Shown here: positions 3,416 to 21,691 of the stretch, one piece after another
How the letters are laid out: each line of letters starts with the position of its first letter
How positions within the stretch are numbered: position 1 is the stretch's first letter
Origin: Dehalococcoidales bacterium
Lineage (GTDB): Bacteria > Chloroflexota > Dehalococcoidia > Dehalococcoidales > Fen-1064
DNA length: 64,000 bases
Direction: 5' to 3'
Assembly (NCBI GenBank): GCA_035529395.1
Contig: DATKWT010000091.1
Span: 135-64,134 of the forward strand
Notes under the pieces: generated by a model
Databases searched by the model: none
Seen by the model: only the letters and a program-made list of their open reading frames with translations
Told to the model about the DNA's origin: nothing
Made by a program: the position numbers and the translations under genes

Positions 3416-3444
3416 TTGACATGCAGGCAAATCAGAGTTAGTAT
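3416..3444 (+). promoter_or_regulatory. Sigma-70-like promoter upstream of the DUF134 gene (TTGACA-17 nt-TAGTAT)
   Basis: -35 TTGACA at 3416-3421, 17-nt spacer, -10 TAGTAT at 3439-3444, 47 nt upstream of the ATG at 3491. Confidence 0.55.
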
Positions 3445-3490: not shown

Positions 3491-3982
3491 ATGGTAAGAA
3501 TGGGCAGGCCACCGCTCTGGCGTCGAGTTAACAACATACCTGATGTGCCCTACTTCAAACCGGCCGGGGTACCGCTGACCGCACTGGAAGAGGTACAGTT
3601 GTCGGTTGAGGAAGTAGAAGCAATTCGCCTGAAGGACCTTGAGCGTTTAGCACAAGAGGGTTGCGCTCAAAGGATGAGTGTCTCGCGTACCACCTTTGCT
3701 CGTATCCTGACTTCAGCCCGGCAGAAGATGGCTGATGCTTTACTCCATGGTAAGGCGATTAGAATTGATGGCGGTAATTTTCAATTGGCCCTGCAGCATT
3801 TCAGGTGCAATCGTGGCCATGAGTGGGATGTTCCGTTTGAAGTTATGGTAAATACGCCCCCACGGTTCTGCCCTGCCTGCAACACACAAAATATCCTGAG
3901 CACTCAGCTTCCGGGCCCGGGAAGAGGCAGGTCTGGCCGAGGAAGACGCCATAGAGGCGGGCGCAACTGGCAGGAGGTGTAG
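3491..3982 (+). CDS. DUF134-family putative DNA-binding protein with a C-terminal zinc ribbon and Arg/Gly-rich tail
   Basis: The N-terminal part matches the DUF134/UPF0251 pattern (GRPP..R....P....FKP.G....L..V.L..EE.EA.RL.D...L.Q...A..M.VSR.TF.R.L..AR.K.A.AL..G). Downstream lie C..GH..//..CPAC and the tail PGPGRGRSGRGRRHRGGR. Confidence 0.75.
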   Translation: MVRMGRPPLWRRVNNIPDVPYFKPAGVPLTALEEVQLSVEEVEAIRLKDLERLAQEGCAQRMSVSRTTFARILTSARQKMADALLHGKAIRIDGGNFQLALQHFRCNRGHEWDVPFEVMVNTPPRFCPACNTQNILSTQLPGPGRGRSGRGRRHRGGRNWQEV

Positions 3983-3983
3983 A

Positions 3984-4454
3984 GTGGAAACGCAGTTGGT
4001 ACCGGCCGAGAGCAACACAGGTGGGAAACCGAATGCTCGCAGCACAGAACAGCGCAGGATAATCCTGAGAATTATTCAACAGGCCGGTGGACACCTTGAT
4101 GCGGATGATATCTACCGCCTGGCCCGGAAAGACTTGCCTGTCATCAGTTTGTCTACCGTGTACCGTACCCTGCAATTATTCCGGAAATTAGGGCTAATTG
4201 AAGAGCATCAGTTCAGTGACATGCGGCGGCGTTATGAAAGTGTGCCCCGCGCGAAGCATCATCACCTGGTATGCCTGGGCTGCGGTCGGGTGCTTGAGTT
4301 CAACTGCCCATCGACGGAGCGATTGAAATCCAGGATAAGCCGGCAAGAAGGATTCGAGGTTACTGACGCCGAAGTACGTCTCGAGGGCTACTGTCCCGAA
4401 TGTAGAAGTCGCCTATCGGATAGAATGATTGATACTGAACAGGGCAATAAATAG
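3984..4454 (+). CDS. Fur-family metalloregulator (paralogue 1)
   Basis: Winged-helix segment SLSTVYRTLQLFRKLGLI, HHHLVCLGCG and a C-terminal CPEC (structural Zn site). GTG start lies 5 nt after GGAGGT. Fur, Zur and PerR cannot be told apart from sequence alone. Confidence 0.85.
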   Translation: METQLVPAESNTGGKPNARSTEQRRIILRIIQQAGGHLDADDIYRLARKDLPVISLSTVYRTLQLFRKLGLIEEHQFSDMRRRYESVPRAKHHHLVCLGCGRVLEFNCPSTERLKSRISRQEGFEVTDAEVRLEGYCPECRSRLSDRMIDTEQGNK

Positions 4455-4468
4455 AGGAGGTGAGCGAA

Positions 4469-4666
4469 ATGCCGTTTGAAATGGGACCTGCCGGATGGGC
4501 TTATACCTATCCATATGCTTACCGTCACTATATTCCATCACTCCTGGTATGGCCCTGGCGGGGTTACCGCGGTTGTGGCTGGGGTCGTGGCAGGGGCCGC
4601 GGATTTGGTCGGCGCTGGTTTGCCCGCAACTGGTACCCCGGTGGTAAATCTACATATGAGGTATGA
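4469..4666 (+). CDS. Small aromatic and Arg/Gly-rich protein (65 aa), function unknown
   Basis: AGGAGG lies 8 nt upstream of the ATG at 4469 (the ORF track starts at the GTG at 4460). It contains WRGYRGCGWGRGRGRGFGRRWFARNW. It is the first of a run of Gly/Arg-rich genes. Confidence 0.45.
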   Translation: MPFEMGPAGWAYTYPYAYRHYIPSLLVWPWRGYRGCGWGRGRGRGFGRRWFARNWYPGGKSTYEV

Positions 4667-4735: not shown

Positions 4736-5083
4736 ATGCCTAATGGATTTGGTAGGGGGTTCGGCTTCGGAAGAGGCAGGGGGTTTGGCTTTAGAGGAAG
4801 CTCTCCCTCCTGGCCGTACGTTGGCAGGGGTAGAGGTGGACTGCCGAGGAGTGCCTACTTCATGGGCGGTGTCGGTATGCCACCGGCCTGGGACTACCCA
4901 CAGCCCCAATACATGGGGCCCCAATACATTGGGGCGCCATCTGCACCGGGCAATGTTCCCTTTTCGCCTCAGATGACCAGAGAAGAGGAACTCAGCTATC
5001 TACAGGACCAGGCAAAAGGAATAACGGAACAACTCGACGGGATTGAGACCAGGATGCGTGACCTGGAAAAAGAAAAGGAATAG
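4736..5083 (+). CDS. DUF5320-like Gly/Arg-rich protein with a C-terminal coiled coil
   Basis: AGGAGG precedes the ATG. N-terminus is MPNGFGRGFGFGRGRGFGFRG. It shares APGNVPFSP and the heptad tail EEELSYLQDQAKGITEQLDGIETRMRDLEKEKE with the next gene. Confidence 0.65.
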   Translation: MPNGFGRGFGFGRGRGFGFRGSSPSWPYVGRGRGGLPRSAYFMGGVGMPPAWDYPQPQYMGPQYIGAPSAPGNVPFSPQMTREEELSYLQDQAKGITEQLDGIETRMRDLEKEKE

Positions 5084-5135
5084 GACACCACTTATCACAA
5101 TATAGACTAAAACAGTTGGAAAAAGGAGGCGAACA

Positions 5136-5432
5136 ATGCCAGGATTTAACGGTACCGGCCCGAGGGGAATGGGGCCAATGACAGGCGGTGGACGGGGTTT
5201 TTGCAGTCCCTGGGGAAGAGGGGCTTATCAACGCGGGTATGGTGTTCCGCGGACGGCGTATGGTAATCCCTACTACGGGGCCTGGCCAGTTGCTCCCGGT
5301 AATGCACCCTTTGCTCCTGGTGTAGGCCGTGAGCAGGAGCTTGGTTTTCTGCAACAGCAAGCTCAGGTCATGAAGGAGCAGCTGGAGCAAATAGAGGTCA
5401 GAATACAAGAGATAGCAATCGAGAAGAAGTAA
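5136..5432 (+). CDS. DUF5320-family protein
   Basis: N-terminus MPGFNGTGPRGMGPMTGGGRGFC matches my recollection of the DUF5320 signature (MPRGDGTGP.G.GP.TGRG.G.C). C-terminal coiled coil is EQELGFLQQQAQVMKEQLEQIEVRIQE. AAGGAGG RBS. Confidence 0.7.
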   Translation: MPGFNGTGPRGMGPMTGGGRGFCSPWGRGAYQRGYGVPRTAYGNPYYGAWPVAPGNAPFAPGVGREQELGFLQQQAQVMKEQLEQIEVRIQEIAIEKK

Positions 5433-5441
5433 GGAGAGGTT

Positions 5442-6038
5442 ATGAAGATTGCGATTTCAGCAACAGAACCCACTCTCGAAGCCGAGGTAGACCCTCGCTT
5501 CGGGCGCTGTCAGCATTTCATTATTGCTGACTCTGAAACGATGGAGTTTGAAGCCGTCGATAATACCAGTGCTATGGCTTCAGGTGGGGCAGGAATCGCC
5601 ACTGCCCAGGTGATTTCCAGCAAGGGTGTACAGGCTGTGCTCACCGGTAATTGCGGTCCAAACGCTCATCAGGTGCTCTCGGCCGCCGGGATTCAGGTGA
5701 TTACCGGCGCATCCGGCAAGATAAAGGATGCTATTCAGGATTACGTGGCCGGTAAGTTCCAGGCTAGCTCACAGGCTAACGTGCCTGACCACGCCGGAAT
5801 GAATGCTGTTCCTGGCATACAATCTGGCGGAGGTTCCGGTATGGGCAGAGGCATGGGCATGGGCATGGGCCGTGGTATGGGTATGGGAGCCGGAATGCCA
5901 TCACCAGTCAACCAGACACCGCCGCCCCAGACACCGGAGCAAAACCTCAAGACACTCAGGGAACAGTCGCAAGCACTGGCACAACAGCTGGCTGAGATGC
6001 AGCGTAAGATTGAGGACATGGAAAAGAAAGAGAAATAA
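5442..6038 (+). CDS. NifX/NifB-like (dinitrogenase FeMo-cofactor-biosynthesis domain) protein fused to a (GM/GR) repeat and a DUF5320-type coiled coil
   Basis: The N-terminal ~105 aa carry DPRFGRC.HF, GGAG, VLTGNCGPNA and AGI.V, as in NifX-like carriers. The C-terminus is GGGSGMGRGMGMGMGRGMGMGAGM followed by PEQNLKTLREQSQALAQQLAEMQRKIEDMEKKEK. Confidence 0.8.
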   Translation: MKIAISATEPTLEAEVDPRFGRCQHFIIADSETMEFEAVDNTSAMASGGAGIATAQVISSKGVQAVLTGNCGPNAHQVLSAAGIQVITGASGKIKDAIQDYVAGKFQASSQANVPDHAGMNAVPGIQSGGGSGMGRGMGMGMGRGMGMGAGMPSPVNQTPPPQTPEQNLKTLREQSQALAQQLAEMQRKIEDMEKKEK

Positions 6039-6071: not shown

Positions 6072-6302
6072 ATGCCCAGAGGAGACGGAACCGGACCCCC
6101 TCAGGGTGGTGGTCCGGGTGCGGGGAGAGGTATGCCCGGAAGAAGCAGGGGTGCCGGGAGAATGGGGGGAACACGTGCCGGAGCCGGTCCTGATGGTGAG
6201 TGTGTCTGTCCGGGTTGTGGTGCCAGAGTATCACATCAGGTGGGTGGACCCTGTTACAATATGAGTTGCCCCAGATGTGGGACCAAGATGGTGAGAGCAT
6301 GA
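6072..6302 (+). CDS. DUF5320-like N-terminus fused to a 4-Cys zinc ribbon (76 aa)
   Basis: MPRGDGTGPPQGGGPGAGRGMPGRSRGAGRMGG followed by CVCPGCG..(17)..CPRCG. GGGAGG RBS. Its stop overlaps the next start (ATGA). Confidence 0.65.
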   Translation: MPRGDGTGPPQGGGPGAGRGMPGRSRGAGRMGGTRAGAGPDGECVCPGCGARVSHQVGGPCYNMSCPRCGTKMVRA

Positions 6303-7165
6303 TAATAGCGGTGGCCAGTGGCAAAGGGGGAACGGGCAAGACATTGGTGGCTACCAGTCTTGCCCTCTCCTTGGAAGACAGAGGGGGAGTACAGATCCTG
6401 GATTGTGATGTGGAGGAGCCTAATGCCCATGTCTTTCTAAAGCCACGATTTGACGGCAGCGAACCTGTCAGTATTCCGATACCCAGGGTAGATGAGGAAA
6501 AGTGCACACACTGTGGCAAATGTGCCGAGGTCTGTGCATTCAATGCCATTGCGGTACTCGGTCAGTACGTGATGGTCTTTCCCGAACTCTGTCACGGTTG
6601 CGGTGCCTGTAGCTACCTCTGCCCGGAAAATGCCATCACCGAGGAGTACAGAGAAATTGGCGTTGTCGAATGGGGGTATTCGGATGGCGTTGAGTTTGCC
6701 CACGGTAAACTCAACGTAGGCGAGGCTATGGCCCCGCCTGTGATTAAAAAGGTAAAACAACGTGCCAATCGTGATGGTTCGGTTATTCTTGATGTTCCCC
6801 CGGGCACATCCTGCCCGGTGGTGGAAGCAGTTGGGGACAGCGATTTCTGCATCCTGGTAACGGAACCTACTCCATTCGGACTTAATGACCTCATTCTGGC
6901 GGTAGAGACGGTGAGAGAACTTGGCGTACCGTGTGGGGTCGTACTAAATCGTGCCGGGGTAGGGGATAATAACGTTGAGCAATACTGCCAGCGGGAGAAT
7001 ATTCCGGTCATGCTTACTATCCCTTTGGATACGGATATCGCACGTCTTTATTCCAGAGGGGTAACTCTGGTTGAAGGGATGCCGGAGTGGAAGAAGGATT
7101 TCGTCGGGCTGTATAATCAGATTGGAGATATTGTAAGTGAAAGAACTGGTAGTCCTGAGCGGTAA
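6299..7165 (+). CDS. MinD/ParA-type P-loop ATPase with an inserted 2x[4Fe-4S] ferredoxin domain (copy 1)
   Basis: Start taken at MIIAVASGKGGTGKT (deviant Walker A), which is the ATGA overlap with the upstream stop. The track's 6200 start adds 33 aa that overlap the upstream gene. Cluster motifs are CTHCGKCAEVC and CHGCGACSYLCP. Confidence 0.85.
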   Translation: MIIAVASGKGGTGKTLVATSLALSLEDRGGVQILDCDVEEPNAHVFLKPRFDGSEPVSIPIPRVDEEKCTHCGKCAEVCAFNAIAVLGQYVMVFPELCHGCGACSYLCPENAITEEYREIGVVEWGYSDGVEFAHGKLNVGEAMAPPVIKKVKQRANRDGSVILDVPPGTSCPVVEAVGDSDFCILVTEPTPFGLNDLILAVETVRELGVPCGVVLNRAGVGDNNVEQYCQRENIPVMLTIPLDTDIARLYSRGVTLVEGMPEWKKDFVGLYNQIGDIVSERTGSPER

Positions 7166-7997
7166 AGGGGGAACGGGCAAGACCAGCATCGTCGGTTCCT
7201 TTGCCTCTCTGTCTAAGAGCAAGGTTCTCGTCGACTGCGATGTAGATGCTGCTGACCTTCACCTCATCCTGAACCCGACCGCACGGGATAAGCACGAGTT
7301 CTGGAGCGGACAGGTTGCCTTTATCGATAGAGAGAAGTGTAACGAGTGCGGCTTGTGCCAGGAGCTGTGTCGTTTCGATGCTATCAGGGATTTCAAGGTT
7401 AACCCCGTTTCCTGTGAAGGCTGTGGTTTCTGCTCTCACATATGCCCGGTGGAAGCCATAACCATGGAGGATAACCTGTCCGGACAGTGGTTTATCTCCG
7501 ATACCGGGTATGGTCCTCTGGTGCATGCCAGGCTGGGAATTGCCCAGGAAAACTCAGGGAAGCTGGTGGCTCATGTAAGGCAACAGGGCAGGAAACTTGC
7601 CGAAAAGGACGGGATAGATTACATTGTTAGTGATGGGCCGCCCGGTATTGGCTGTCCGGTAATCTCATCCCTGTCCGGAGCTGGCCTGGCTCTATTAGTA
7701 ACCGAGCCAACACTTTCGGGGATACATGACCTGGAGCGAGTAATCGGTGTCTGCCTTCACTTCGGTGTTCCGGTAATGGTGTGTATCAACAAGTACGACC
7801 TGAATGAAGATAACACCCACCGAATTGAAAGCTACTGTCTTGAACAGGGGCTGGAAATAGCCGGCAGGGTTTCATTTGATAATGCAGTTACGGAGTCAAT
7901 CGTACGGGGTATTCCTGTGGTGGAATATACCCGGGACAATGTCACGCACGAGATAGAATCGCTGTGGCGGTGCGTCAAGAACAAACTGGAAGGGTAG
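7137..7997 (+). CDS. MinD/ParA-type P-loop ATPase with an inserted 2x[4Fe-4S] ferredoxin domain (copy 2)
   Basis: VLSGKGGTGKT, CNECGLCQELC and CEGCGFCSHICP. It overlaps copy 1 by 29 nt. Confidence 0.85.
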   Translation: MKELVVLSGKGGTGKTSIVGSFASLSKSKVLVDCDVDAADLHLILNPTARDKHEFWSGQVAFIDREKCNECGLCQELCRFDAIRDFKVNPVSCEGCGFCSHICPVEAITMEDNLSGQWFISDTGYGPLVHARLGIAQENSGKLVAHVRQQGRKLAEKDGIDYIVSDGPPGIGCPVISSLSGAGLALLVTEPTLSGIHDLERVIGVCLHFGVPVMVCINKYDLNEDNTHRIESYCLEQGLEIAGRVSFDNAVTESIVRGIPVVEYTRDNVTHEIESLWRCVKNKLEG

Positions 7998-8013: not shown

Positions 8014-8196
8014 ATGCCAATATACGAGTATGAATGCATGAAGTGCGGCCAGAAGTTCGAGCTCCGCCGGAGCATGGCCGACAGTGGCAAGGATACACAG
8101 TGTCCCAGGTGTGGGGCCGAGGACTCACGGCGTGTCTTCTCGGTATTTGCCACGGGTTCTTCGGTTGGTGCCTGCGCTCCAGGCGGTTCCACCTGA
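8014..8196 (+). CDS. FmdB-family (CxxC_CxxC_SSSS) zinc-ribbon protein
   Basis: MPIYEYECMKCG...CPRCG, the typical N-terminal signature of this family. Confidence 0.75.
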   Translation: MPIYEYECMKCGQKFELRRSMADSGKDTQCPRCGAEDSRRVFSVFATGSSVGACAPGGST

Positions 8197-8262
8197 AGCA
8201 TCAGCCAGTGAGGCAGGTTGTCTCACCCGGGATAAGGGAAGTCTGAAAGGAGGAATAAAGTC

Positions 8263-8499
8263 GTGCCGCTCTATGACTTTGAATGCCGGGATTGTGGTAG
8301 AGTATCAGAGGTGCTGCTTCGTATTTCCGGGCAGGTAGCTCATTGTTCTGAGTGTGGCAGTGCCAACGTGGAACGGCTTATCTCGGCATCATATATGATA
8401 AAGACGGATGTGTCAGGCCCGGGTACCACCTGCTGCGGACGGAGCGAGCGCTGTGAGGCGTCTCCTTGCTCCACCGGAGATGTGTGCCGCAGAGGTTGA
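8263..8499 (+). CDS. FmdB-family zinc-ribbon protein with a Cys-rich tail
   Basis: MPLYDFECRDCG...CSECG plus the C-terminus TTCCGRSERCEASPCSTGDVC. GTG start lies 8 nt after AGGAGG. Confidence 0.7.
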   Translation: MPLYDFECRDCGRVSEVLLRISGQVAHCSECGSANVERLISASYMIKTDVSGPGTTCCGRSERCEASPCSTGDVCRRG

Positions 8500-8626
8500 A
8501 GGAATGGTCCTGCTTAACCTTGACCCCGGGAATCCCGCGAGGGGAAACGGGTGGCAGTGAAAATACAGGTTAAACCGGAAAACCGGAACACGAGTTAATA
8601 TTGATTGGAAGAATTTGGAGGTGCCT

Positions 8627-8965
8627 ATGAGGTACGCAGTACCGGTAAACAATGGTATATTATCACCACACTTCGGTCACTGTGAGCATTTTGCCATGCT
8701 CGATGTTGACGTCGAAAAAAAGGAGATACTCAAGAATGAGCTTGTGCCGTCACCGGGCCATCAGCCGGGTCTTCTTCCGCAGTGGCTGGCCGACCAGGGG
8801 GTCTCGGTAGTAATTGCTGGTGGTATGGGTTCGCGCGCCCAGGACCTTTTCCAGCAGAACCGCATCCAGGTCGTTATCGGTGCCCAGGAAGGTGACCCGG
8901 AGAAGGCGGTGCTGAGCTATCTGCATGAAGAATTGGCTACCGAAGATAACATATGTGACCACTAA
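8627..8965 (+). CDS. NifX/NifB-like (FeMo-cofactor-biosynthesis domain) protein, copy 2
   Basis: Start at the ATG 5 nt after GGAGGT (the track starts at a TTG at 8615). Motifs are PHFGHCEHF, VIAGGMG and IQVV.G. Confidence 0.8.
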   Translation: MRYAVPVNNGILSPHFGHCEHFAMLDVDVEKKEILKNELVPSPGHQPGLLPQWLADQGVSVVIAGGMGSRAQDLFQQNRIQVVIGAQEGDPEKAVLSYLHEELATEDNICDH

Positions 8966-8994
8966 AGGATGAAAATGGGAATAGAGGAGTATAG

Positions 8995-9999
8995 ATGGTA
9001 ACTGAGGAGCAAGTAAGAGAAAGCCTGGAGGGAGTGCTTGTACCCGCTATCAAACGCAGTATTATCAGGCTGAATCTGGTGCGTGAGGTAGCTATCACTG
9101 ACGGCAAAGTCAGGATTGTTCTGGCTTCGACGGGGCTGATTACGGGTGCTCAGGACTGGGTTAAGGACCAGGTTGTGGAGGTCGTGAAGAAGCTGCCCGA
9201 AGCTGGCGAAGTAGAAGTAGAATTTGTTGAGGCCACGCCGGCTGAGTTAAATGAGATTGGTCATGTTATTGCGATAATGAGTGGGAAGGGTGGTGTAGGC
9301 AAGTCGTTGATGGCCAGCCTTACTGCCATCTCACTGAGACGACTGGGCTATGAAGTAGGTATCCTGGATGCTGATATCACCGGCCCCAGTATACCCAGGA
9401 TGTTCGGCATCAATACCCGGCCTGGCGGTAACGAAAGTGGCATGTTACCGGTCCTGTCAAAATCAGAGATTGAAGTCATGTCCATCAACCTTCTTCTGCC
9501 CAGCGAGGACGACGCTGTTATCTGGCGTGGTCCACTTATCGGCAAGGCGATTACCCAGTTCTGGGAAGAAGTGCTCTGGGGCAAGCTTGATTACCTGATT
9601 ATCGACCTTCCACCGGGAACGGCCGACGCTCCTCTTACAGTGATGCAGACACTACCTATTTCCGGTGTAGTTATTGTTTTCACGCCTCAGGACCTGACCG
9701 CAATGGTTGTCAGAAAAGCCGTAAACATGGCGCAGAAAATGGAGAAGCCAATCCTGGGAGTAGTCGAGAACATGGCCTATCTATATGTCCCTGAGATAGA
9801 TAAGAAGATTGAGCTGTTCGGTAGCAGCCAGGGGGAGGAGATGGCCCGGGTATCCAATGCACCGTTCCTGGGACAGTTGCCCATAGACCCGGAACTGGCA
9901 AAGCTATGTGACGAGGGGAATGTTGAGCGATATAGTGCCGAGTTAGTAGATAACCTGGGTAAGTCTCTTTCCGAGGCGACATCAGGCGATAAAGCATAA
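8995..9999 (+). CDS. Mrp/NBP35/ApbC-family Fe-S cluster carrier ATPase with an N-terminal DUF59-like domain
   Basis: The N-terminal ~85 aa are MIP18/DUF59-like, followed by [21 protein letters not shown] and IIDLPPGT. Confidence 0.85.
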   Translation: MVTEEQVRESLEGVLVPAIKRSIIRLNLVREVAITDGKVRIVLASTGLITGAQDWVKDQVVEVVKKLPEAGEVEVEFVEATPAELNEIGHVIAIMSGKGGVGKSLMASLTAISLRRLGYEVGILDADITGPSIPRMFGINTRPGGNESGMLPVLSKSEIEVMSINLLLPSEDDAVIWRGPLIGKAITQFWEEVLWGKLDYLIIDLPPGTADAPLTVMQTLPISGVVIVFTPQDLTAMVVRKAVNMAQKMEKPILGVVENMAYLYVPEIDKKIELFGSSQGEEMARVSNAPFLGQLPIDPELAKLCDEGNVERYSAELVDNLGKSLSEATSGDKA

Positions 10000-10015: not shown

Positions 10016-10465
10016 GTGGCTGTATCACGGGAAAAGCTCGAAGAACTGCTCAAGCAGGAGATGAGGAAGATTTACTCCGAGACAGTTATCGACCACAGCA
10101 TGCACCCGAGAAACACCGGTAATCCTGGTGACGCCGACGGTTATGCGAAAGTAACCGGTCCCTGTGGCGATACCATGGAAATGTGGCTCAAAGTAAAAGA
10201 TGACATAATCCGTGATGCCAGTTTCATGACCGATGGTTGTAGCACAACCATTGCTGCCAGCAGCATGGTTACCGAGATGGCGAAAGGCAGGACTGCGGGC
10301 GAGGCCCAGAGGATTAGCCAGCGGGATATCCTGGATGCTCTGGGTGGGTTACCTGAGGACGGCGAGCACTGTGCCCTTCTTGCCTCAGATACGCTGAAGG
10401 AAGCGATAAGGGACTACCTCGCCATGAAAAGAGAGCCGTGGAAGAAGGGCTACCGGCAACACTAG
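10016..10465 (+). CDS. IscU/NifU-N-type Fe-S scaffold protein
   Basis: Three scaffold Cys in context (GPCGD, DGCSTTIA, HCALLA). GTG start lies 7 nt after AGGAGG. Confidence 0.85.
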   Translation: MAVSREKLEELLKQEMRKIYSETVIDHSMHPRNTGNPGDADGYAKVTGPCGDTMEMWLKVKDDIIRDASFMTDGCSTTIAASSMVTEMAKGRTAGEAQRISQRDILDALGGLPEDGEHCALLASDTLKEAIRDYLAMKREPWKKGYRQH

Positions 10466-10485
10466 CTGAGCAATAGTATAATCCG

Positions 10486-10541
10486 GACTCTCCAGGTCAG
10501 TATACCGGGAACTCATCGGACTGGCATGGAGGGTCTTTTTT
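10486..10541 (+). terminator. Rho-independent terminator candidate after the IscU gene
   Basis: Imperfect 16-nt arms GACTCTCCAGGTCAGT / ACTGGCATGGAGGGTC (3 mismatches) followed by TTTTTT. Confidence 0.5.
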
Positions 10542-10684
10542 CTATCATCACCCTGTCTACTCCCGCTGGACAACATCCAACTCAGAACCCGCGCTTGATT
10601 AAACTTTCTGTATCTGCTATCCGTGGGTGTTCAGTGCTATCTGAAGCGTGTGACGTGGTATTATACCCCGATTTATAGCAGGAA

Positions 10685-10713
10685 TTGACATAGCTATACG
10701 GGTTGTTTATAAT
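10685..10713 (+). promoter_or_regulatory. Consensus sigma-70 promoter (TTGACA-17 nt-TATAAT) upstream of Fur paralogue 2
   Basis: Both hexamers match consensus exactly with a 17-nt spacer, 36 nt upstream of the ATG at 10749. Confidence 0.7.
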
Positions 10714-10748
10714 AGTAGTTGGGAATGAGACGCATTAGCGATACTTAA

Positions 10749-11174
10749 ATGACTACAAAGAGCATTCGTAGAGAACTGAACGTACCGGGACTGAGAGCTA
10801 CTAACCAGCGGCTTCTGGTGATGCAGATAATACAACATGGGCAAGGGCACCTGGATGCTGATGAAATCTATCGTCGGGCCCGAGAGAAAAACCCCCGCCT
10901 CAGCCTGTCCACCGTTTATCGTACCCTGCAAACTCTTAAGAAATATGGTTTGATAGAGGAGCTTCATCTTGATGAGGGGCATCACCATTATGAGAAGCGG
11001 ACTGCCCAGCACCACCACCTGGTCTGTCTCGGGTGTGGCAGGGTCGTTGAATTCCGGTACCCGTTAGCCAGCCTGATAAAGAAGAATGTCAGAGAAGCCA
11101 GAGAATTTAATATTACCAGTAGCGAAATCAGAATGACGGGCTATTGCCCGAAGTGTCGTCAAGAGAGGGAATAG
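10749..11174 (+). CDS. Fur-family metalloregulator (paralogue 2)
   Basis: SLSTVYRTLQTLKKYGLI, HHHLVCLGCG and a C-terminal CPKC. It lies immediately upstream of feoAB. Confidence 0.85.
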   Translation: MTTKSIRRELNVPGLRATNQRLLVMQIIQHGQGHLDADEIYRRAREKNPRLSLSTVYRTLQTLKKYGLIEELHLDEGHHHYEKRTAQHHHLVCLGCGRVVEFRYPLASLIKKNVREAREFNITSSEIRMTGYCPKCRQERE

Positions 11175-11249
11175 CGTACGGGCAAGCTCTTTGTGACACA
11201 GTGTATTTTTACTCGGAACTATAAAGGCTGGGTGTAACCAGAGAAATGG

Positions 11250-11582
11250 ATGCGGTACATGTTCAGATTCGGGGGCAGGTTCAGACATGGATTTCAGGGC
11301 AGGTTCAAACGTGGATTTGGGTGGGGTGAAGGGCAACTAACTCTAGCGCGAATGCAGACCGGGCAGAGCGGCATAGTGGTCCAGGTACTGTCCGGACATG
11401 GTGTGATTAAGCGTCTTGGTGCTCTGGGACTCAGACCTGGGCTGAGAGTTACCAAGGTTAATTCTTCATTCATGCGGGGACCGGTAACGGTACAGTTCGG
11501 TAATACCCAGGTAGCTATTGGCTTCGGCATGGCCAGCAGGATAGTGGTGGAACCGATAGAATCCCGGAATGAAAGGCCATAG
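11250..11582 (+). CDS. feoA: FeoA-domain protein with an Arg/Gly/Phe-rich N-terminal extension
   Basis: FeoA SH3-like core (LA.M..GQ.G.VV.V....G...RL.ALGLRPG..V.......GP....FG...VAIG...A..I.V). The ~29-aa N-terminus is MRYMFRFGGRFRHGFQGRFKRGFGWGEG. Confidence 0.75.
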   Translation: MRYMFRFGGRFRHGFQGRFKRGFGWGEGQLTLARMQTGQSGIVVQVLSGHGVIKRLGALGLRPGLRVTKVNSSFMRGPVTVQFGNTQVAIGFGMASRIVVEPIESRNERP

Positions 11583-13329
11583 CGTGGTGACCAGCAACAG
11601 CAGCAAGAGCACTGGCATCAAGAGAGTGCTGCTGATGGGTAACCCCAATGTGGGCAAGAGTGTCATTTTCTCCCGTCTGACTGGCACCCGGGTGATTGCT
11701 TCTAATTATCCGGGCACCACGGTAGGCTACAGCCAGGGGTTCATGAACCTGGGGGAAGACAGGGTCGAGGTTATTGATGTACCCGGTACCTATACGCTGG
11801 AACCAACCAGCGAGGCTGAAGAAATAGCCTCCGAGATGCTCAACACCGGAGACTTAATCATAAATGTGGTTGACGCTACCAATCTGGAGAGAAATCTTTA
11901 TCTGACTCAGCAATTATTGGAACGGGACATACCGCTAGTAGTGGCGCTCAATATCTGGGATGAGACCGAACATCGAGGAATACATATTGAGCTGGATAAG
12001 CTGAGGGAACGCCTGGGGGTGCCGGTTATTCCCACCGTGGCGGTAAGCGGTCAGGGGATAAAGGAACTCGTTACCAGTATTGTCAGCGCAACTTCACCTG
12101 ATACTCCTGCCCGCAGCTATGATGAGCGCTGGGCTACTATTGGCGGTATTATCAGCCAGGTCCAGCGCATTACTCATCGACATCATACCTGGCGGGAGCA
12201 CCTCGGGGATGCCAGCGTGCAGCCATTAGCCGGTGGCATCATAGCCTTAGTTGTTCTTGCCGTTGCCTTTCTGGTAGTCCGCTTCATCGGGGAAAACCTC
12301 ATCGGTTATGTGCTTGAGCCCCTGTTCGACACTCTGTGGGCGCCGGTGGTATTGAGGTTAAGTGACATCCTCGGCGGTTCGGGATTTTTCCATGATATCC
12401 TGATTGGTAAGATTGTTGGTGGCGAAGTCAACTTTGTTGAATCATTTGGCTTGTTGACCACCGGGCTCTTTGTCCCCTTTGGCATGGTGTTGCCTTACAT
12501 AATATCTTTCTATCTGGTGCTGGGCATGTTCGAGGATACAGGTTACCTGCCGCGGCTGGCAGTTCTGATGGATACCCTGATGCACCGTCTGGGCTTGCAC
12601 GGCTATGCAATCATTCCGAGTATGCTGGGTCTGGGCTGCAATGTACCGGCTGTTCTGGCCACCCGCATCCTGGAGAGCAAGAGGGAGAGATTCATTGCGG
12701 CAACATTGATATCTATTGCCATACCCTGTGCTGCCCTGCAAGCAATGATATTCGGCCTGGTGGGGGAGCAGGGGGCGCAGTATGTGGCCATTGTCTTCGG
12801 GACACTGTTCGTAGTCTGGATTATTCTGGGAGTAATAATAAACCGCTTCGCCAGAGGATTCAGCCCCGAGTTGCTGATAGAGATACCACCCTATCGTATG
12901 CCACCGTGGCGGACCGTATTGCAGAAGCTGTGGATGAGGGTCAACGGTTTCCTGAAAGAGGCTATCCCCATAATCCTGGGTGCTGTGCTGGTAATAAATA
13001 TACTCTATACTTTGGGGATATTTGATGCTATCGCTGATTTTGCATCACCTGTGGTAACCGGTCTCCTGGGACTACCCAAGGAGGCTGTAACGGCCCTGGT
13101 TATCGGTTTCCTGCGTAAAGATGTAGCCCTGGGCATGCTCGCTCCCCTGGGAATGAGTGCCAACCAGCTGGTCGTTGGTAGCGTTGTCCTGGCCATGTTC
13201 TTCCCCTGCGTGGCTACATTTGTAGTTCTTCTGAGAGAGCTCGGGGTTGTCAATATGCTCAAATCGGTGGCAATAATGATTGCCACCGCATTACTGGTGG
13301 GAGGGGCACTAAACCTGATTCTGCAGTAG
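11569..13329 (+). CDS. feoB: Ferrous iron transporter FeoB
   Basis: The N-terminal G-domain has GNPNVGKS and DVPGTY, followed by a polytopic membrane domain. It overlaps feoA by 14 nt. Confidence 0.9.
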   Translation: MKGHSVVTSNSSKSTGIKRVLLMGNPNVGKSVIFSRLTGTRVIASNYPGTTVGYSQGFMNLGEDRVEVIDVPGTYTLEPTSEAEEIASEMLNTGDLIINVVDATNLERNLYLTQQLLERDIPLVVALNIWDETEHRGIHIELDKLRERLGVPVIPTVAVSGQGIKELVTSIVSATSPDTPARSYDERWATIGGIISQVQRITHRHHTWREHLGDASVQPLAGGIIALVVLAVAFLVVRFIGENLIGYVLEPLFDTLWAPVVLRLSDILGGSGFFHDILIGKIVGGEVNFVESFGLLTTGLFVPFGMVLPYIISFYLVLGMFEDTGYLPRLAVLMDTLMHRLGLHGYAIIPSMLGLGCNVPAVLATRILESKRERFIAATLISIAIPCAALQAMIFGLVGEQGAQYVAIVFGTLFVVWIILGVIINRFARGFSPELLIEIPPYRMPPWRTVLQKLWMRVNGFLKEAIPIILGAVLVINILYTLGIFDAIADFASPVVTGLLGLPKEAVTALVIGFLRKDVALGMLAPLGMSANQLVVGSVVLAMFFPCVATFVVLLRELGVVNMLKSVAIMIATALLVGGALNLILQ

Positions 13330-18776: not shown

Positions 18777-18805
18777 TTGATTTAGCCAGTACCGATTGGT
18801 ATACT
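18777..18805 (+). promoter_or_regulatory. Promoter candidate TTGATT-17 nt-TATACT for the CoA-transferase genes
   Basis: Hexamers and spacing read directly from the sequence. Confidence 0.5.
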
Positions 18806-18891
18806 CGTGGGTAACCCCACCCCAGGGAAGACCGTCCCCATGTGCGGGACGGTTTCTGACATATTCCCACGGAACGGAGAAGGGAGAGACT

Positions 18892-20088
18892 GTGGAGCAG
18901 GCTCTGTCCGGCGTCAGGGTACTGGATGTAACTCACTACATTGCCGGGCCCTACTGCACCAAGCTGCTCGCCGACTATGGCGCCGAGGTGGTCAAGGTGG
19001 AAAGGCACGGTACCGGTGACGGCGCCAGAAGGATTGGCCCCTTCTACAAGGATGACCCTCATCCGGAAAAGAGTGGCCTGTTTCTCTACCTGAACACCAA
19101 CAAACGCGGTGTCACTCTGAACCTGAAGTCTGAGACCGGGATTAGAATATTCCGGGAACTGGTGGTAGACGCTGACATCCTCGTGGAGAACTTCAGCCCC
19201 AGGGTGATGGCGTCTCTGGGTCTGGACTATGAGAGTCTGGAGAGGATAAACCCCGGTCTGGTTATGACCTCCATTTCCAACTTCGGGCAGACCGGTCCCT
19301 ACCGAGACTACAAGGCCACCGAGATTGTCGCTGATGCTATGGGTGGCTGGATGAGCATCATCGGCCACCCGGACCGCGAGCCACTTAAACCCGGCGGGAA
19401 CCAGGCGCAGTTTGTCAGCGGTCTCTTCGGATGTGTCGGTACAATGACCGCTTTCCACGGTCGGGAGTTGACCGGAGTCGGACAACACGTGGACATATCC
19501 CTGATGGATGCCGTGCTCTACATCCAGATGAATATTACGCAAATATATCACTACCACGAGAGGGTTACCAGCAGAATCGGCAATATGGTACTGCCCCCAC
19601 CCGGTTCGATACTACCCTGTCGGGACGGCTATATCGGGGCTATCGCCGTTACGAACAGCCAGTGGCAATCCCTCTGTGAGTGGATGGGGAAACCGGAGCT
19701 AGCCAGCGACGAGAGGTTCCTTACCAGAATCCACCGCACCGAGAATGTGGACGAGCTTATTGCTACGTTAATTCCCTGGCTACTCGAGCATGACCAGGAG
19801 GAACTGCTGCGCGAAGCGCAGAAGCGAAGGATTCCTTTTGGAATCCCGGCTGGGGCCGACCGGTTACTCAACTCTGAGCATCTCAACGAGAGAGGCTATT
19901 TCGTAGATGTTGAGCATCCCGTTACCGGAAAGGTCAGGTATCCCGGTGCCCAGTTTGGATTGGGTGATTTGCCCTATGAATTAAAGCCGGCGCCGCTGCT
20001 GGGTGAGCATAACGAGGAAATCTACTGCCATCGTCTCGGTTATAATAAAAAAGACCTGGTGAGGCTGCGAGAGACGGGCGTTATTTGA
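18892..20088 (+). CDS. Family III (CaiB/BaiF) CoA-transferase, paralogue 1
   Basis: LSGVRVLDVTHYIAGPYCTKLLADYGAEVVKVE is the typical N-terminus. Start taken at the GTG after GGAGAAGGGAGAG. The track's TTG at 18796 would sit inside the promoter. Confidence 0.85.
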   Translation: MEQALSGVRVLDVTHYIAGPYCTKLLADYGAEVVKVERHGTGDGARRIGPFYKDDPHPEKSGLFLYLNTNKRGVTLNLKSETGIRIFRELVVDADILVENFSPRVMASLGLDYESLERINPGLVMTSISNFGQTGPYRDYKATEIVADAMGGWMSIIGHPDREPLKPGGNQAQFVSGLFGCVGTMTAFHGRELTGVGQHVDISLMDAVLYIQMNITQIYHYHERVTSRIGNMVLPPPGSILPCRDGYIGAIAVTNSQWQSLCEWMGKPELASDERFLTRIHRTENVDELIATLIPWLLEHDQEELLREAQKRRIPFGIPAGADRLLNSEHLNERGYFVDVEHPVTGKVRYPGAQFGLGDLPYELKPAPLLGEHNEEIYCHRLGYNKKDLVRLRETGVI

Positions 20089-20120
20089 GCAATTCCACGC
20101 CTCGCGGAGGGATAGAGAAA

Positions 20121-21609: not shown

Positions 21610-21691
21610 GGAGATGGTATATAATTCACGTGGGTGCGGAACCATAGTGTAGAATAACCAATGCATTAAAAAGAAGATTGGAGAAATCCAG

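What the first reader, a model, noticed from the sequence alone, without database searches (positions are those of the whole stretch)
4736..6038. NifX-like carrier shares a C-terminal coiled-coil module with two stand-alone DUF5320-like proteins
**Seen in sequence.** Three adjacent proteins end with the same type of heptad segment:
- ...TREEELSYLQDQAKGITEQLDGIETRMRDLEKEKE
- ...GREQELGFLQQQAQVMKEQLEQIEVRIQEIAIEKK
- ...PEQNLKTLREQSQALAQQLAEMQRKIEDMEKKEK

The two stand-alone proteins also share APGN(A/V)PF(A/S)P.

**Inference.** The fusion physically links the DUF5320 tail to a cofactor-binding NifX fold. The tails could therefore hetero-oligomerise and recruit the carrier. This gives a concrete functional clue for DUF5320.
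Basis: partly seen in the sequence, partly recalled or inferred. Interest (0 to 1): 0.55.

Follow-up and report, generated by a model that had tools for sequence, protein, structure and literature searches.

The report
Orange-protein carrier with DUF5320 coiled-coil tail
Three neighbouring genes in an iron-regulated operon of a Dehalococcoidales bacterium do end in the same short coiled-coil helix; the pattern is common, already catalogued and unstudied, and it ties the unknown DUF5320 family to iron-sulfur handling.

Summary
ORFs 4736-5083, 5136-5432 and 5442-6038 end in homologous helices of about four heptads (z = 5.5 to 13 against shuffles). AlphaFold predicts these helices after disordered Gly-rich segments.

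The fusion is not a frameshift and not unique. All 120 best database relatives carry Nitro_FeMo-Co plus DUF5320, and 77 of 119 orthologues from many phyla keep the coil. Pfam and NCBI already label such proteins, so the architecture is catalogued, though nothing is published on it.

The "NifX-like" head is closest to the Desulfovibrio orange protein (42% identity, TM 0.91) and carries two extra invariant cysteines.

The gene order is conserved: DUF134, (Fur), DUF5320 x1-3, carrier, Zn-ribbon protein, two MinD/ferredoxin ATPases, split MrpORP, NifU, Fur, FeoAB. This is an ORP-type Fe-S locus.

The tail is modular: a (GMGR)n repeat first, then an optional coil. The coil was gained or lost at least about 20 times. 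Stand-alone DUF5320 proteins accompany coil-less carriers (11 of 11) and occur beside DUF134 alone in distant lineages.

Their disordered parts match the composition of the thioferrate-binding tail of IssA.

Hetero-oligomerisation is possible but gets no specific support. Interest is moderate.

The parts
3491..3982 (+). DUF134 (UPF0251) predicted HTH protein and first gene of the operon. It ends in a cationic Gly/Arg tail (GPGRGRSGRGRRHRGG).
   Evidence: Pfam PF02001, 90.4 bits. A promoter-like site lies at 3416-3444 and there is no terminator-like site up to 8200. DUF134 lies upstream of the DUF5320 genes in 40/46 and 20/26 loci.
3984..4454 (+). Fur-family regulator
   Evidence: Pfam PF01475, 118 bits. 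It holds the same position in L012, L023, L083, L090, L094, L129 and L144.
4469..4666 (+). R68: a small cationic, aromatic, Gly-rich protein without a coil. It is a degenerate DUF5320 derivative.
   Evidence: pI 10.1, 25% FWY, 18% Gly, 13% Arg. It is conserved in position in several loci, and relatives keep the full N-motif. A Shine-Dalgarno sequence precedes the ATG at 4469. No Pfam hit.
4736..5083 (+). D1: a divergent stand-alone DUF5320 protein. It has an RG/FG-rich disordered part (aa 1-80) and a coil (aa 81-115, nt 4976-5080).
   Evidence: Pfam DUF5320 at 17 bits, below threshold, but aligned end to end. Tail z = 13.2 against D2. The D1 subfamily motif PWPYVGRGRGGLPR[C] occurs in 80 ORFs; this copy has Ser in place of the usual Cys.
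5136..5432 (+). D2: a canonical stand-alone DUF5320 protein. It has the N-motif MPxxxGTGPxGxGPMTGxGxGxC (Cys23), a disordered Gly/Arg/aromatic part, and a coil (aa 64-98, nt 5325-5429).
   Evidence: Pfam 71.3 bits. N-motif invariant residues listed. AF2: residues 1-60 at pLDDT 44-50, helix 65-97 at about 90.
5442..5795 (+). NX head: an orange-protein-like Nitro_FeMo-Co domain (aa 1-118) with invariant Cys23 and Cys71.
   Evidence: Pfam PF02579, 89.6 bits. PDB sequence search: 2WFB at 1.1e-19 and 1EO1 at 8e-18. Foldseek: 2WFB at 42% identity, TM 0.91, rmsd 1.0. Invariant residues. ORP has Ala and Val at the two Cys positions.
5796..5933 (+). NX disordered segment: the (GMGR)n Gly/Met/Arg repeat (aa 119-152) plus a Pro-rich linker (aa 153-164).
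   Evidence: 44% Gly, 24% Met, net charge +2. pLDDT below 50 across 119-162. A 6/12-nt DNA tandem repeat lies at 5841-5881. The repeat is present in every tailed orthologue.
5934..6038 (+). NX C-terminal coiled-coil helix (aa 165-198) and stop codon.
   Evidence: AF2 helix 165-197. Matches the coil HMM with an a/d heptad. Lies within the Pfam DUF5320 match to aa 123-192.
6072..6302 (+). Z76: an N-motif variant (MPRGDGTGP), a Gly/Arg stretch and a C4 zinc ribbon. Its stop codon overlaps the next start codon (ATGA).
   Evidence: 76 such ORFs, 72 of them with the N-motif. Directly downstream of the carrier in most loci. Fused to the carrier in L007. Only sub-threshold Zn-ribbon Pfam hits.
6299..7165 (+). 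MinD/CbiA-type P-loop ATPase with an inserted 2x[4Fe-4S] ferredoxin domain (Orp3/Orp4-like).
   Evidence: Pfam ParA, CbiA and Fer4 hits. The description of Orp3/Orp4 is from PMC6345978.
7137..7997 (+). Second MinD/CbiA-Fer4 ATPase.
   Evidence: Pfam hits.
8014..8499 (+). Two FmdB-family zinc-ribbon proteins (8014-8196 and 8263-8499).
   Evidence: TIGR02605, 67.7 and 52.3 bits.
8615..9999 (+). Second Nitro_FeMo-Co protein (8615-8965, HFGHCEHF motif) followed by Mrp/NBP35 (8995-9999). Together they form a split version of MrpORP.
   Evidence: PF02579, 79 bits. A partial NF041136 MrpORP match of 126 bits to its C-terminal domain. The two are fused in L051, L057, L059, L073 and L135.
10016..13329 (+). 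NifU/IscU-like scaffold (10016-10465), second Fur (10749-11174), FeoA (11250-11582) and FeoB (11569-13329).
   Evidence: Assigned from the ORF translations and from phmmer matches of these window proteins to same-position ORFs in related loci. No Pfam scan was run on these four.

Best explanation
**What it is.** The three proteins belong to one modular family built as head, then a disordered Gly-rich cationic segment, then a C-terminal helix of about four heptads.
- In the 198-aa protein the head is an orange-protein-like Nitro_FeMo-Co domain with two invariant cysteines in its ligand-pocket loops.
- In the 98-aa protein the head is a 23-residue N-terminal motif with one nearly invariant cysteine.
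- In the 115-aa protein it is an RG/FG-rich motif.

They are encoded in an operon headed by DUF134 and Fur. That operon is an ORP-type iron-sulfur locus with two MinD/ferredoxin ATPases, a split MrpORP, NifU and FeoAB.

**Proposed mechanism (inferred, not shown).**
- The helix forms parallel, in-register dimers or higher oligomers, homotypic or mixed.
- This makes the proteins multivalent and brings cysteine-bearing heads together.
- The cationic Gly/Arg/aromatic (or Gly/Met/Arg) segments hold an anionic iron-sulfur species next to the heads. This is the role proposed for the compositionally matching tail of the Pyrococcus iron-sulfur storage protein IssA.
- The coil is an accessory multimerisation device and not an obligatory docking site between carrier and DUF5320.

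**Shown:** homology of the tails, the architecture, the predicted disorder and helix, the conserved synteny, the alternative fusions and the composition match.

**Inferred:** oligomerisation, the ligand and the storage or trafficking role.
For: **Architecture and homology.**. AF2 shows a disordered segment followed by a helix in both NX and D2.

**Head.** It is closest to ORP 2WFB and to MTH1175. Cys23 and Cys71 are invariant in 50 orthologues, where ORP has Ala and Val.

**Locus.** It matches the published ORP components: Orp3/4 are MinD-Fer4 proteins, Orp5/8 are Nitro_FeMo-Co proteins, and MrpORP is present (PMC6345978; Pfam and NCBIfam hits). Fur and FeoAB sit in the operon.

**Synteny.** It is conserved in 80 genome loci and 80 metagenome loci.

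**Same disordered segment plus coil on three kinds of Fe-S-related head.**
- Nitro_FeMo-Co: 77 of 119 orthologues.
- 2x[4Fe-4S] ferredoxin: L003, L035, L045, L085, L086, L093.
- Carrier plus coil plus ferredoxin: L063, L066, L075.

**Cysteine conservation.** 159 of 198 N-motifs have the Cys, and 71 of 80 D1 motifs have theirs. Tandem forms carry two N-motifs on one coil.

**Composition match to the IssA tail.**
- D1 disordered part: 79 aa, 25.6% Gly, 8.5% cationic, 17.2% aromatic, 15.5% Pro, about 1 Cys.
- D2 disordered part: 70 aa, 25.3% Gly, 8.8% cationic, 14.8% aromatic, 14.6% Pro, about 1 Cys.
- IssA tail as published: 70 aa, 15 Gly, 7 cationic, 14 aromatic, 11 Pro, 1 Cys, pI 10.7 (PMC5524996).

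**Coil charges.** The e/g charges are self-complementary for parallel in-register pairing.

**Distant relatives.** They lie beside Fur or a sigma54 activator, Nitro_FeMo-Co, CbiA/Fer4, NifU, EncFtn-like and CDF-NifX genes.
Against: - No experiment exists on any DUF5320 protein. The paper library has two incidental mentions.
- The window's own carrier tail is only weakly cationic (+2), has no aromatic residues and is 24% Met. The whole protein has pI 5.6.
- It therefore fails the published operational criteria for the IssA and IssX clades.
- I could not obtain the IssA sequence, so the match is in composition only.
- Four of ten distant DUF5320 contexts have DUF134 but no NifX-like or ATPase gene. 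DUF5320 therefore cannot depend on the carrier everywhere.
- RG-rich disordered segments classically bind nucleic acids (general knowledge).
- Surveys are dominated by Dehalococcoidia MAGs, so the counts are not phylogenetically independent.
Confidence: 0.35

Rival explanations
1. The coiled-coil tails hetero-oligomerise specifically, so that stand-alone DUF5320 proteins recruit the NifX-like carrier through coil-coil contacts.
For: - The heptad core and the e/g residues are homologous across the three subfamilies.
- At least 37 of 43 coil-bearing carriers have a stand-alone coil gene within 3 kb.
- A mixed assembly would place IssA-tail-like disordered segments (D1, D2) next to a NifX-like head, which reproduces the IssA layout in trans.
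Against: - There is no charge complementarity specific to mixed pairs. Homotypic pairs score 2.4-3.3 and mixed pairs 2.3-2.9.
- 11 of 11 carriers with a repeat-only tail, and so no coil, still have stand-alone DUF5320 genes.
- Some coil-bearing carriers have no stand-alone partner in the locus, for example L019, L072 and L080.
- The coil was gained or lost at least about 20 times.
- DUF5320 exists without any NifX-like neighbour.
Confidence: 0.2
2. DUF5320 proteins are partners of the DUF134 predicted DNA-binding protein, for example a dimeric metal- or cluster-sensing co-regulator of this operon. The link to the carrier is then secondary.
For: - DUF134 lies just upstream of the DUF5320 genes in 40/46 and 20/26 loci.
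- In a Berkelbacteria genome and three metagenome or assembly contigs of unknown taxonomy (one encoding glycine reductase), a DUF5320-DUF134 pair occurs with no NifX-like gene.
- DUF134 has sigma-70 region 4-like HTH hits and its own Gly/Arg tail.
- The conserved Cys in the N-motif could sense metal or cluster.
Against: - Up to three DUF5320 paralogues per locus, and fusions to Nitro_FeMo-Co and ferredoxin heads, are unusual for a co-regulator.
- Several loci have Fur or a sigma54 activator but no DUF134 next to DUF5320.
- There are no data on DUF134 function.
Confidence: 0.2
3. DUF5320 proteins are adaptor or activator proteins of the two MinD/ParA-type ATPases. They would be analogous to small disordered-plus-coiled-coil ParA partners such as McdB, positioning or cycling the ORP-type complex.
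For: - They are small, with a disordered N-terminal part, a conserved N-terminal peptide and a coiled coil.
- They are encoded in the same operon as two MinD/CbiA-Fer4 ATPases, and in most related loci as well.
- MrpORP localises to the cell pole and the ORP complex has been linked to cell division (PMC6345978).
- The resemblance to McdB comes from my own knowledge and is a lead only.
Against: - DUF5320-DUF134 pairs exist without any such ATPase.
- The N-motif is Gly/Pro/Thr-rich with a Cys and does not resemble a basic ATPase-stimulating peptide. D2 has no Lys or Arg before position 10.
- There is no test of this here.
Confidence: 0.08
4. The Gly/Arg segments are RGG-type nucleic-acid-binding or condensate-forming regions. 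Alternatively, the Met-rich (GM)n repeat of the carrier is a soft-metal (Cu(I)) binding tract suited to a Mo-Cu sulfide cluster like that of the orange protein. In either case iron-sulfur storage is not the function.
For: - D1 starts with GFGRGFGFGRGRGFGFRG and R68 contains GWGRGRGRGFGRRWF.
- The carrier repeat is 24% Met, with MGMGMG runs.
- The nearest solved homologue binds a Mo-Cu-S cluster non-covalently (PMC6345978).
Against: - The operon context is Fur, FeoAB, NifU and Mrp, which points to iron and not copper, molybdenum or RNA.
- The carrier has Cys where ORP has none.
- No nucleic-acid-handling gene other than DUF134 is in the operon.
Confidence: 0.1

Closest known systems
Orange protein (ORP, Orp8) and the ORP complex of Desulfovibrio (Orp3/4/5/8 plus MrpORP)
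   Same: - The head domain is the nearest solved relative of the window protein: 2WFB at 42% identity, TM 0.91 and rmsd 1.0.
- The locus holds the same parts list: two MinD-type ATPases with ferredoxin inserts, two Nitro_FeMo-Co proteins and Mrp plus a Nitro_FeMo-Co domain.
- One distant DUF5320 locus is even headed by a PAS-sigma54 activator like OrpR.
   Different: - ORP has no tail and no Cys at the two positions that are invariant Cys here.
- Regulation here is by Fur and DUF134 and not by OrpR/sigma54.
- MrpORP is split into two genes.
- DUF5320, Z76 and R68 proteins are not described as ORP components.
- Whether Orp7 (DVU2107), which precedes orp8, is a DUF5320 protein could not be settled.
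IssA, the iron-sulfur (thioferrate) storage protein of Pyrococcus furiosus, and the uncharacterised 'IssX' clade (PMC5524996)
   Same: - A Nitro_FeMo-Co/IPR003731 head is followed by a disordered Gly-rich tail of about 70-80 residues.
- The disordered parts of the stand-alone DUF5320 proteins match the published IssA tail composition and length closely.
- The genomic context is iron-related.
   Different: - The window carrier fails the authors' operational criteria: pI 5.6 against at least 8-9, and 0% Gly in the last 40 residues.
- Its tail is Met-rich, lacks aromatic residues and ends in a coiled coil. IssA is not reported to have one.
- The IssA-like composition sits on separate proteins.
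Pfam DUF5320 (PF17253)
   Same: - D2 is a full-length member (71.3 bits).
- The carrier tail matches profile positions 28-98 above threshold.
- NCBI names close relatives of the carrier 'DUF5320 family protein'.
   Different: - D1 is below threshold and represents a divergent subfamily with its own motif.
- R68 and Z76 share only parts of the family: the N-motif and Gly-rich segment, without the coil.
- The family has no assigned function.
Nitrogenase cofactor carriers NifX and NafY
   Same: They share the same Pfam domain and fold class.
   Different: - They rank only 13th-14th in the fold search (TM 0.57-0.61, 19-22% identity).
- No nitrogenase gene was seen in the operon or among the window genes examined.
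- 'NifX-like' is therefore a loose label.

Membership tests
Pfam DUF5320 (PF17253) | HMM score at or above the gathering threshold (27 bits) | tested here: met
   D2 scores 71.3 bits and the NX tail 37.1 bits. D1 scores only 17 bits (not met on its own), but it aligns end to end and its tail has z = 13.2 against D2.
Pfam DUF5320 (PF17253) | N-terminal motif MPxxxGTGPxxxGPxTGxxxGxC | tested here: inconclusive
   The motif is present in D2. In D1 an RG/FG motif takes its place, and in NX the Nitro_FeMo-Co domain does (the profile match starts at position 28).
Pfam DUF5320 (PF17253) | C-terminal amphipathic heptad helix | tested here: met
   The coil HMM shows an a/d pattern, and the module ends within 10 aa of the C terminus in 141 of 149 cases. 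AF2 predicts helices.
Nitro_FeMo-Co / IPR003731 domain family | Pfam PF02579 above threshold and the NifX-like fold | tested here: met
   89.6 bits. Foldseek hits to 2WFB, 1RDU, 2YX6, 1O13 and 1EO1 at E between 7e-13 and 7e-7.
Orange protein / ORP-complex locus | Head domain most similar to ORP | tested here: met
   2WFB is the best hit by sequence (1.1e-19) and by fold (42% identity, TM 0.91).
Orange protein / ORP-complex locus | Clustered with two MinD-Fer4 ATPases, a second Nitro_FeMo-Co protein and an Mrp-type carrier | tested here: met
.
Orange protein / ORP-complex locus | Non-covalent Mo-Cu sulfide cluster and no Cys ligands | tested here: not met
   The Cys part was tested. NX has invariant Cys23 and Cys71 where ORP has Ala and Val. 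Cluster binding itself cannot be tested here.
Orange protein / ORP-complex locus | OrpR/sigma54-dependent regulation | tested here: not met
   The window operon carries DUF134 and Fur and has no sigma54 activator. A sigma54 activator appears only in the distant locus L161.
IssA (thioferrate storage) | IPR003731 head plus an unstructured C-terminal tail | tested here: met
   Head. Residues 119-162 have pLDDT below 50.
IssA (thioferrate storage) | Authors' clade criteria. IssA: pI at least 9, fewer than 5 Cys, at least 20% Gly in the last 40 residues. IssX: pI at least 8, at least 10% Gly. | tested here: not met
   NX has pI 5.6, 2 Cys and 0% Gly in its last 40 residues. The criteria were read.
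IssA (thioferrate storage) | Tail rich in cationic, aromatic and Gly residues | tested here: inconclusive
   The NX tail does not meet this (0% aromatic, net charge +2). The D1, D2 and R68 disordered parts do, but they are separate proteins.
IssA (thioferrate storage) | Binds thioferrate and forms Fe-S nanoparticles | not testable with these tools
   This needs anaerobic purification, XAS or EM.
NifX/NafY nitrogenase cofactor carriers | nif gene context and closest similarity to NifX or NafY | tested here: not met
   NifX (9IAN_F) and NafY (1P90) rank 13-14 in the fold search. No nitrogenase gene is in the operon or among the ten other window genes scanned.
ParA/MinD partner proteins (McdB/MinE-like) | Binds and stimulates the cognate ParA/MinD ATPase through an N-terminal peptide | not testable with these tools
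   Only the gross layout and the gene neighbourhood resemble these proteins.

The most novel reading that the evidence does not exclude
DUF5320 proteins and the Gly-rich, coil-tipped tail of the orange-protein-like carrier could be the bacterial, mesophilic counterpart of IssA. In this reading, coiled-coil multimers display cationic Gly/Arg/aromatic segments and cysteine-bearing heads (NifX-like domain, N-motif, ferredoxin, Zn ribbon). Together they nucleate and hold an inorganic iron-sulfur polymer or cluster pool, as a protein-mineral particle or condensate. The MinD/ferredoxin ATPases and Mrp/NifU would load or unload it, under Fur control. That would make DUF5320 a widespread iron-sulfur storage or buffering scaffold of anaerobes.
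Probability: 0.15. Interest if true: 0.75.

Novelty: new variant of a known kind. Interest (0 to 1): 0.4.

Why it matters
How strict anaerobes store and traffic iron and sulfide is still poorly understood. Only two relevant systems have been touched experimentally: the ORP complex of Desulfovibrio and IssA of Pyrococcus.

This locus joins features of both. It also shows that an uncharacterised and widespread small-protein family, DUF5320, together with two unnamed relatives, is a regular component of such loci. DUF5320 is fused in different genomes to NifX-like, ferredoxin and zinc-ribbon heads.

That gives DUF5320 a concrete, testable context:
- Does it multimerise through the coil?
- Does the conserved cysteine or the Gly/Arg segment bind Fe-S species?
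- Does it work with DUF134, with the carrier, or with both?

The value is a functional lead. It is not a new type of system. The domain architecture is already in Pfam and in NCBI annotation.

Tried and rejected
1. **Frameshift or unique fusion.** Rejected. The fusion is in all 120 best relatives and in 77 of 119 orthologues.
2. **Canonical NifX.** Rejected in favour of an orange-protein-like head.
3. **IssA/IssX membership of the carrier by the published criteria.** Not met.
4. **Direct sequence comparison with IssA.** I could not obtain the sequence. The supplements hold only primers, figure legends and accession numbers.
5. **Is D. vulgaris Orp7 (DVU2107) a DUF5320 protein?**
   - The Fievet 2011 paper is not held.
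   - Other orp papers give no description of Orp7.
   - A homologue search seeded with a DUF5320 from an MrpORP-type locus gave 17 hits, none from Desulfovibrio.
   - The question stays open.
6. **Heterospecific coil pairing from e/g charges.** No signal.
7. **Single-sequence search of 1.84 billion representatives with the 80-aa tail.** Only 154 hits at E <= 0.001. Many are short fragments, and nearly all matches abut the C terminus. The search is too insensitive to count fusions.
8. **Literature on DUF5320 and DUF134.** Nothing relevant.
9. **Promoter and terminator scan.** One promoter-like site lies upstream of DUF134, but the count is not above shuffles, so it is weak evidence only.
10. 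**Membrane-targeting helix.** Considered and set aside. The helix is 33 residues long, rich in Glu/Gln and net negative in D1 and D2.


Full report
**1.

The region contains three + strand ORFs: 4736-5083 (D1, 115 aa), 5136-5432 (D2, 98 aa) and 5442-6038 (NX, 198 aa). Their C-termini are exactly as quoted. Each is preceded by a Shine-Dalgarno sequence. The motif shared by the two small proteins (APGNVPFSP / APGNAPFAP) is present.

The last 36 residues are more alike than composition explains. Local alignment scores against 2000 shuffles give z = 13.2 (D1/D2), 8.3 (D1/NX) and 5.5 (D2/NX).

Pfam results:
- D2 is a full-length DUF5320 (PF17253, 71.3 bits).
- NX is Nitro_FeMo-Co (aa 13-102, 89.6 bits) plus DUF5320 (aa 123-192, profile positions 28-98, 37.1 bits, above the 27-bit threshold).
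- D1 scores only 17 bits, but end to end.

An HMM trained on 149 such modules from related loci has large hydrophobic residues in 95-100% of sequences at positions 6, 9, 16, 20, 23, 27 and 30, and Ala/Ser at 13. This is a 3-4-3-4 heptad of about four turns. In 141 of 149 cases the module ends within 10 residues of the C terminus.

AlphaFold2 predictions:
- NX: a confident fold for residues 1-118, pLDDT below 50 for 119-162, and a helix at 165-197.
- D2: residues 1-60 at pLDDT 44-50, and a helix at 65-97 at about 90.

**2. The fusion is common and already catalogued**

All 120 best relatives of NX in the 5.8-billion-protein collection carry both Pfam domains. NCBI names some of them "DUF5320 family protein [Dehalococcoidales]".

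A scan of one genome per species returned 80 loci. Most are Dehalococcoidales/Dehalococcoidia MAGs, and the window's best match is 86% identical. Others are Planctomycetota/Phycisphaerae, Nitrospiraceae, "Deltaproteobacteria", Stahlbacteria, Hydrogenedentota, Syntrophorhabdus, Aerophobus and Lentisphaeria MAGs.

The paper library holds only two incidental mentions of DUF5320.

**3. What the head is**

By sequence, the nearest solved structures are the Desulfovibrio gigas orange protein (2WFB, E = 1.1e-19) and MTH1175 (1EO1, 8e-18). By fold, 2WFB is first (42% identity, TM 0.91, rmsd 1.0 Å). NifX and NafY rank 13th and 14th.

NX orthologues have two invariant cysteines, C23 in RFGRCQHF and C71 in GNCGPNA. 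The orange protein has Ala and Val at those positions.

**4. The locus**

The gene order in the window is:
- DUF134 (3491-3982)
- Fur (3984-4454)
- R68 (4469-4666)
- D1, D2, NX
- Z76 (6072-6302)
- two MinD/CbiA ATPases with inserted 2x[4Fe-4S] domains (6299-7165, 7137-7997)
- two FmdB zinc ribbons
- a second Nitro_FeMo-Co protein (8615-8965)
- Mrp/NBP35 (8995-9999)
- a NifU-like protein, a second Fur, FeoA and FeoB

This order is conserved in most of the 80 genome loci.

It matches the parts list of the ORP complex of D. vulgaris. Orp3/4 are MinD-like proteins with ferredoxin motifs. Orp5/8 are Nitro_FeMo-Co proteins. MrpORP is Mrp fused to a Nitro_FeMo-Co domain and delivers Fe-S clusters to Orp3/4 (PMC6345978). 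In the window MrpORP is split into two genes. It is fused in L051, L057, L059, L073 and L135.

**5. The tail is modular, and the coil is the dispensable part**

Across carrier orthologues, the tail always begins with a Gly-Met-Arg repeat, (GMGR)n. What follows varies:
- a Pro-rich linker and the coil (the commonest form);
- nothing, giving a repeat-only tail (for example L024, L027, L034, L036, L041, L048);
- a zinc ribbon identical in type to Z76 (L007);
- coil plus a 2x[4Fe-4S] ferredoxin (L063, L066, L075).

Some orthologues have no tail at all.

On a neighbour-joining tree of 119 head domains, presence or absence of the coil needs at least about 20 changes. This is a rough figure and contains some classification noise.

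The small proteins are mosaics of the same modules:
- an N-terminal motif, MPxxxGTGPxxxGPxTGxxxGxC, with Cys in 159 of 198 cases;
- cationic and aromatic Gly repeats;
- a D1-type motif, GFGFRGSSPPWPYVGRGRGGLPRC, with Cys in 71 of 80 cases (Ser in the window copy);
- the coil;
- or a zinc ribbon.

Ferredoxin-D1-coil fusions occur in L003, L035, L045, L085, L086 and L093. Tandem forms carry two N-motifs on one coil.

R68 and Z76 in the window belong to this family but lack the coil.

**6. Who goes with whom**

Anchored on the carrier:
- At least 37 of 43 coil-bearing carriers have a stand-alone coil gene within 3 kb. The true number is higher, because two misses are overlap artefacts.
- 11 of 11 repeat-only carriers have one.
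- 4 of 10 tail-less carriers have one.

Anchored on DUF5320 in metagenomes:
- 41 of 52 loci with enough downstream sequence have a Nitro_FeMo-Co ORF within 1.5 kb.
- 45 of 52 have that or a MinD/Fer4 gene.

DUF134 lies just upstream in 40/46 and 20/26 loci.

Ten contexts of more distant DUF5320 proteins split as follows:
- Six have Nitro_FeMo-Co genes next door, with Fur or a PAS-sigma54 activator, CbiA/Fer4 ATPases, NifU, an EncFtn-like gene or a CDF-transporter-NifX fusion.
- Four show a bare DUF5320-DUF134 pair with no NifX-like gene in the stretch fetched.

These counts are not phylogenetically independent.

**7. Does the coil specify hetero-oligomers?**

The a/d core and several e/g residues (E5, K10, Q12, Q19, R26, E31) are shared by the D1, D2 and NX subfamilies. 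For a parallel in-register pair, g-to-e' contacts E5-K10' and R26-E31' are attractive in homotypic and mixed pairs alike. Mean scores are 2.4-3.3 for homotypic pairs and 2.3-2.9 for mixed pairs.

So mixed pairing is permitted but not favoured. No multimer prediction was available.

**8. Link to IssA**

IssA of Pyrococcus furiosus is a Nitro_FeMo-Co/IPR003731 domain followed by a 70-residue unstructured tail. The tail has 15 Gly, 14 aromatic, 7 cationic and 11 Pro residues, one Cys, and pI 10.7. It is proposed to wrap anionic thioferrate. The authors also note an uncharacterised "IssX" clade with Gly-rich tails (PMC5524996).

The disordered parts of D1-type and D2-type proteins average as follows:
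- D1-type: 79 residues, 25.6% Gly, 17.2% aromatic, 8.5% cationic, 15.5% Pro, about one Cys.
- D2-type: 70 residues, 25.3% Gly, 14.8% aromatic, 8.8% cationic, 14.6% Pro, about one Cys.

The window copies have pI 10.9 and 10.2. That is a close compositional match.

The window carrier does not qualify as IssA or IssX by the published criteria. It has pI 5.6 and 0% Gly in the last 40 residues. Its repeat is Met-rich, lacks aromatic residues and carries a net charge of only +2. No sequence comparison with IssA was possible.

**9. Best explanation and rivals**

Best explanation (confidence about 0.35). These are modular head-disordered-coil proteins of an ORP-type Fe-S locus under Fur/DUF134 control.
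- The coil multimerises them, homotypically or mixed.
- The Gly-rich cationic segments hold an anionic Fe-S species beside cysteine-bearing heads, in the manner proposed for IssA.
- Homology, architecture, predicted disorder and helix, synteny, alternative fusions and composition are shown.
- Oligomerisation, ligand and role are inferred.

Rivals:
- a DUF134 partner or co-regulator (0.2);
- RGG-type nucleic-acid binding, or Met-repeat soft-metal binding (0.1);
- an adaptor for the MinD/ParA-type ATPases (0.08).

**10. Novelty and verdict**

The architecture is recorded in Pfam and NCBI, and the locus type is a relative of known systems (ORP, IssA, MrpORP). This is not a new kind of system.

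What is not in the literature searched:
- DUF5320, with the Z76 and R68 relatives, is a regular and modular component of such loci.
- The disordered part of DUF5320 mimics the IssA tail.
- DUF5320 also pairs with DUF134 on its own.

I rate it a new variant of a known kind, with moderate interest (0.4).

Noticed in passing
window 4469-4666 (+): R68 is a 65-aa cationic protein (pI about 10) with 25% aromatic residues and 18% Gly, and no coil and no Pfam hit. It is conserved between Fur/DUF134 and the first DUF5320 gene in several loci. Relatives such as L011_5106 and L012_2321 keep a full DUF5320 N-motif, so it looks like a coil-less DUF5320 derivative. Of all proteins here, its composition is the most like the IssA tail.
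   Followed up: partly
window 6072-6302 (+): Z76 has an MPRGDGTGP N-motif variant, a Gly/Arg stretch and a C4 zinc ribbon. It lies directly downstream of the carrier in more than 70 loci and is fused to the carrier in L007. Its stop codon overlaps the start of the next gene (ATGA at 6299-6302), which suggests translational coupling with the first MinD/Fer4 ATPase. No Pfam family is above threshold.
   Followed up: partly
window 3491-3982 (+); L166, L168, L169, L171: DUF134, a predicted HTH protein, heads the operon and itself ends in a Gly/Arg tail. In a Berkelbacteria genome and three other contigs, a DUF5320-DUF134 gene pair occurs with no NifX-like or MinD/Fer4 gene nearby. DUF134 may therefore be the more universal partner of DUF5320.
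   Followed up: partly
window 4736-5083 (+), residue 39: The window's D1 has Ser where 71 of 80 D1-type proteins have Cys in ...GRGRGGLPRC. The two closest genomes (L001, L002) have Gly there.
   Followed up: partly
window 8615-9999 (+): A second Nitro_FeMo-Co protein with an HFGHCEHF motif is followed by Mrp/NBP35. Together they form a split version of the two-domain MrpORP carrier, with the domains in the opposite order. They are fused in L051, L057, L059, L073 and L135.
   Followed up: partly
L003, L035, L045, L085, L086, L093; L063, L066, L075: 2x[4Fe-4S] ferredoxin domains are fused to the same disordered segment plus coil. In the first six loci they sit N-terminal to a D1-type protein. 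In the last three they sit after the coil of the carrier.
   Followed up: partly
L172 4843-6081; L173 4970-6196: A cation-efflux (CDF) transporter is fused to a Nitro_FeMo-Co domain. It is encoded right after a DUF5320 gene and a stand-alone Nitro_FeMo-Co gene.
   Followed up: no
L165 6431-6682: An encapsulated-ferritin-like (EncFtn-like) gene lies inside a Fur, DUF5320, Nitro_FeMo-Co x2, CbiA/Fer4 cluster. This is another hint of iron storage.
   Followed up: no
window 5841-5881: The Gly-Met-Arg repeat is encoded by a 6/12-nt DNA tandem repeat (ATGGGC, five copies). This may explain the variable repeat length among orthologues.
   Followed up: no
window 13798-62198: The rest of the window encodes the ACS/CODH beta subunit (46341-48548, -), three family III CoA-transferases (18796-23002), an OYE-type flavin oxidoreductase, a Nuo51-like subunit and a carboxyl transferase. 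This fits an anaerobic Dehalococcoidia genome that uses the Wood-Ljungdahl pathway.
   Followed up: partly
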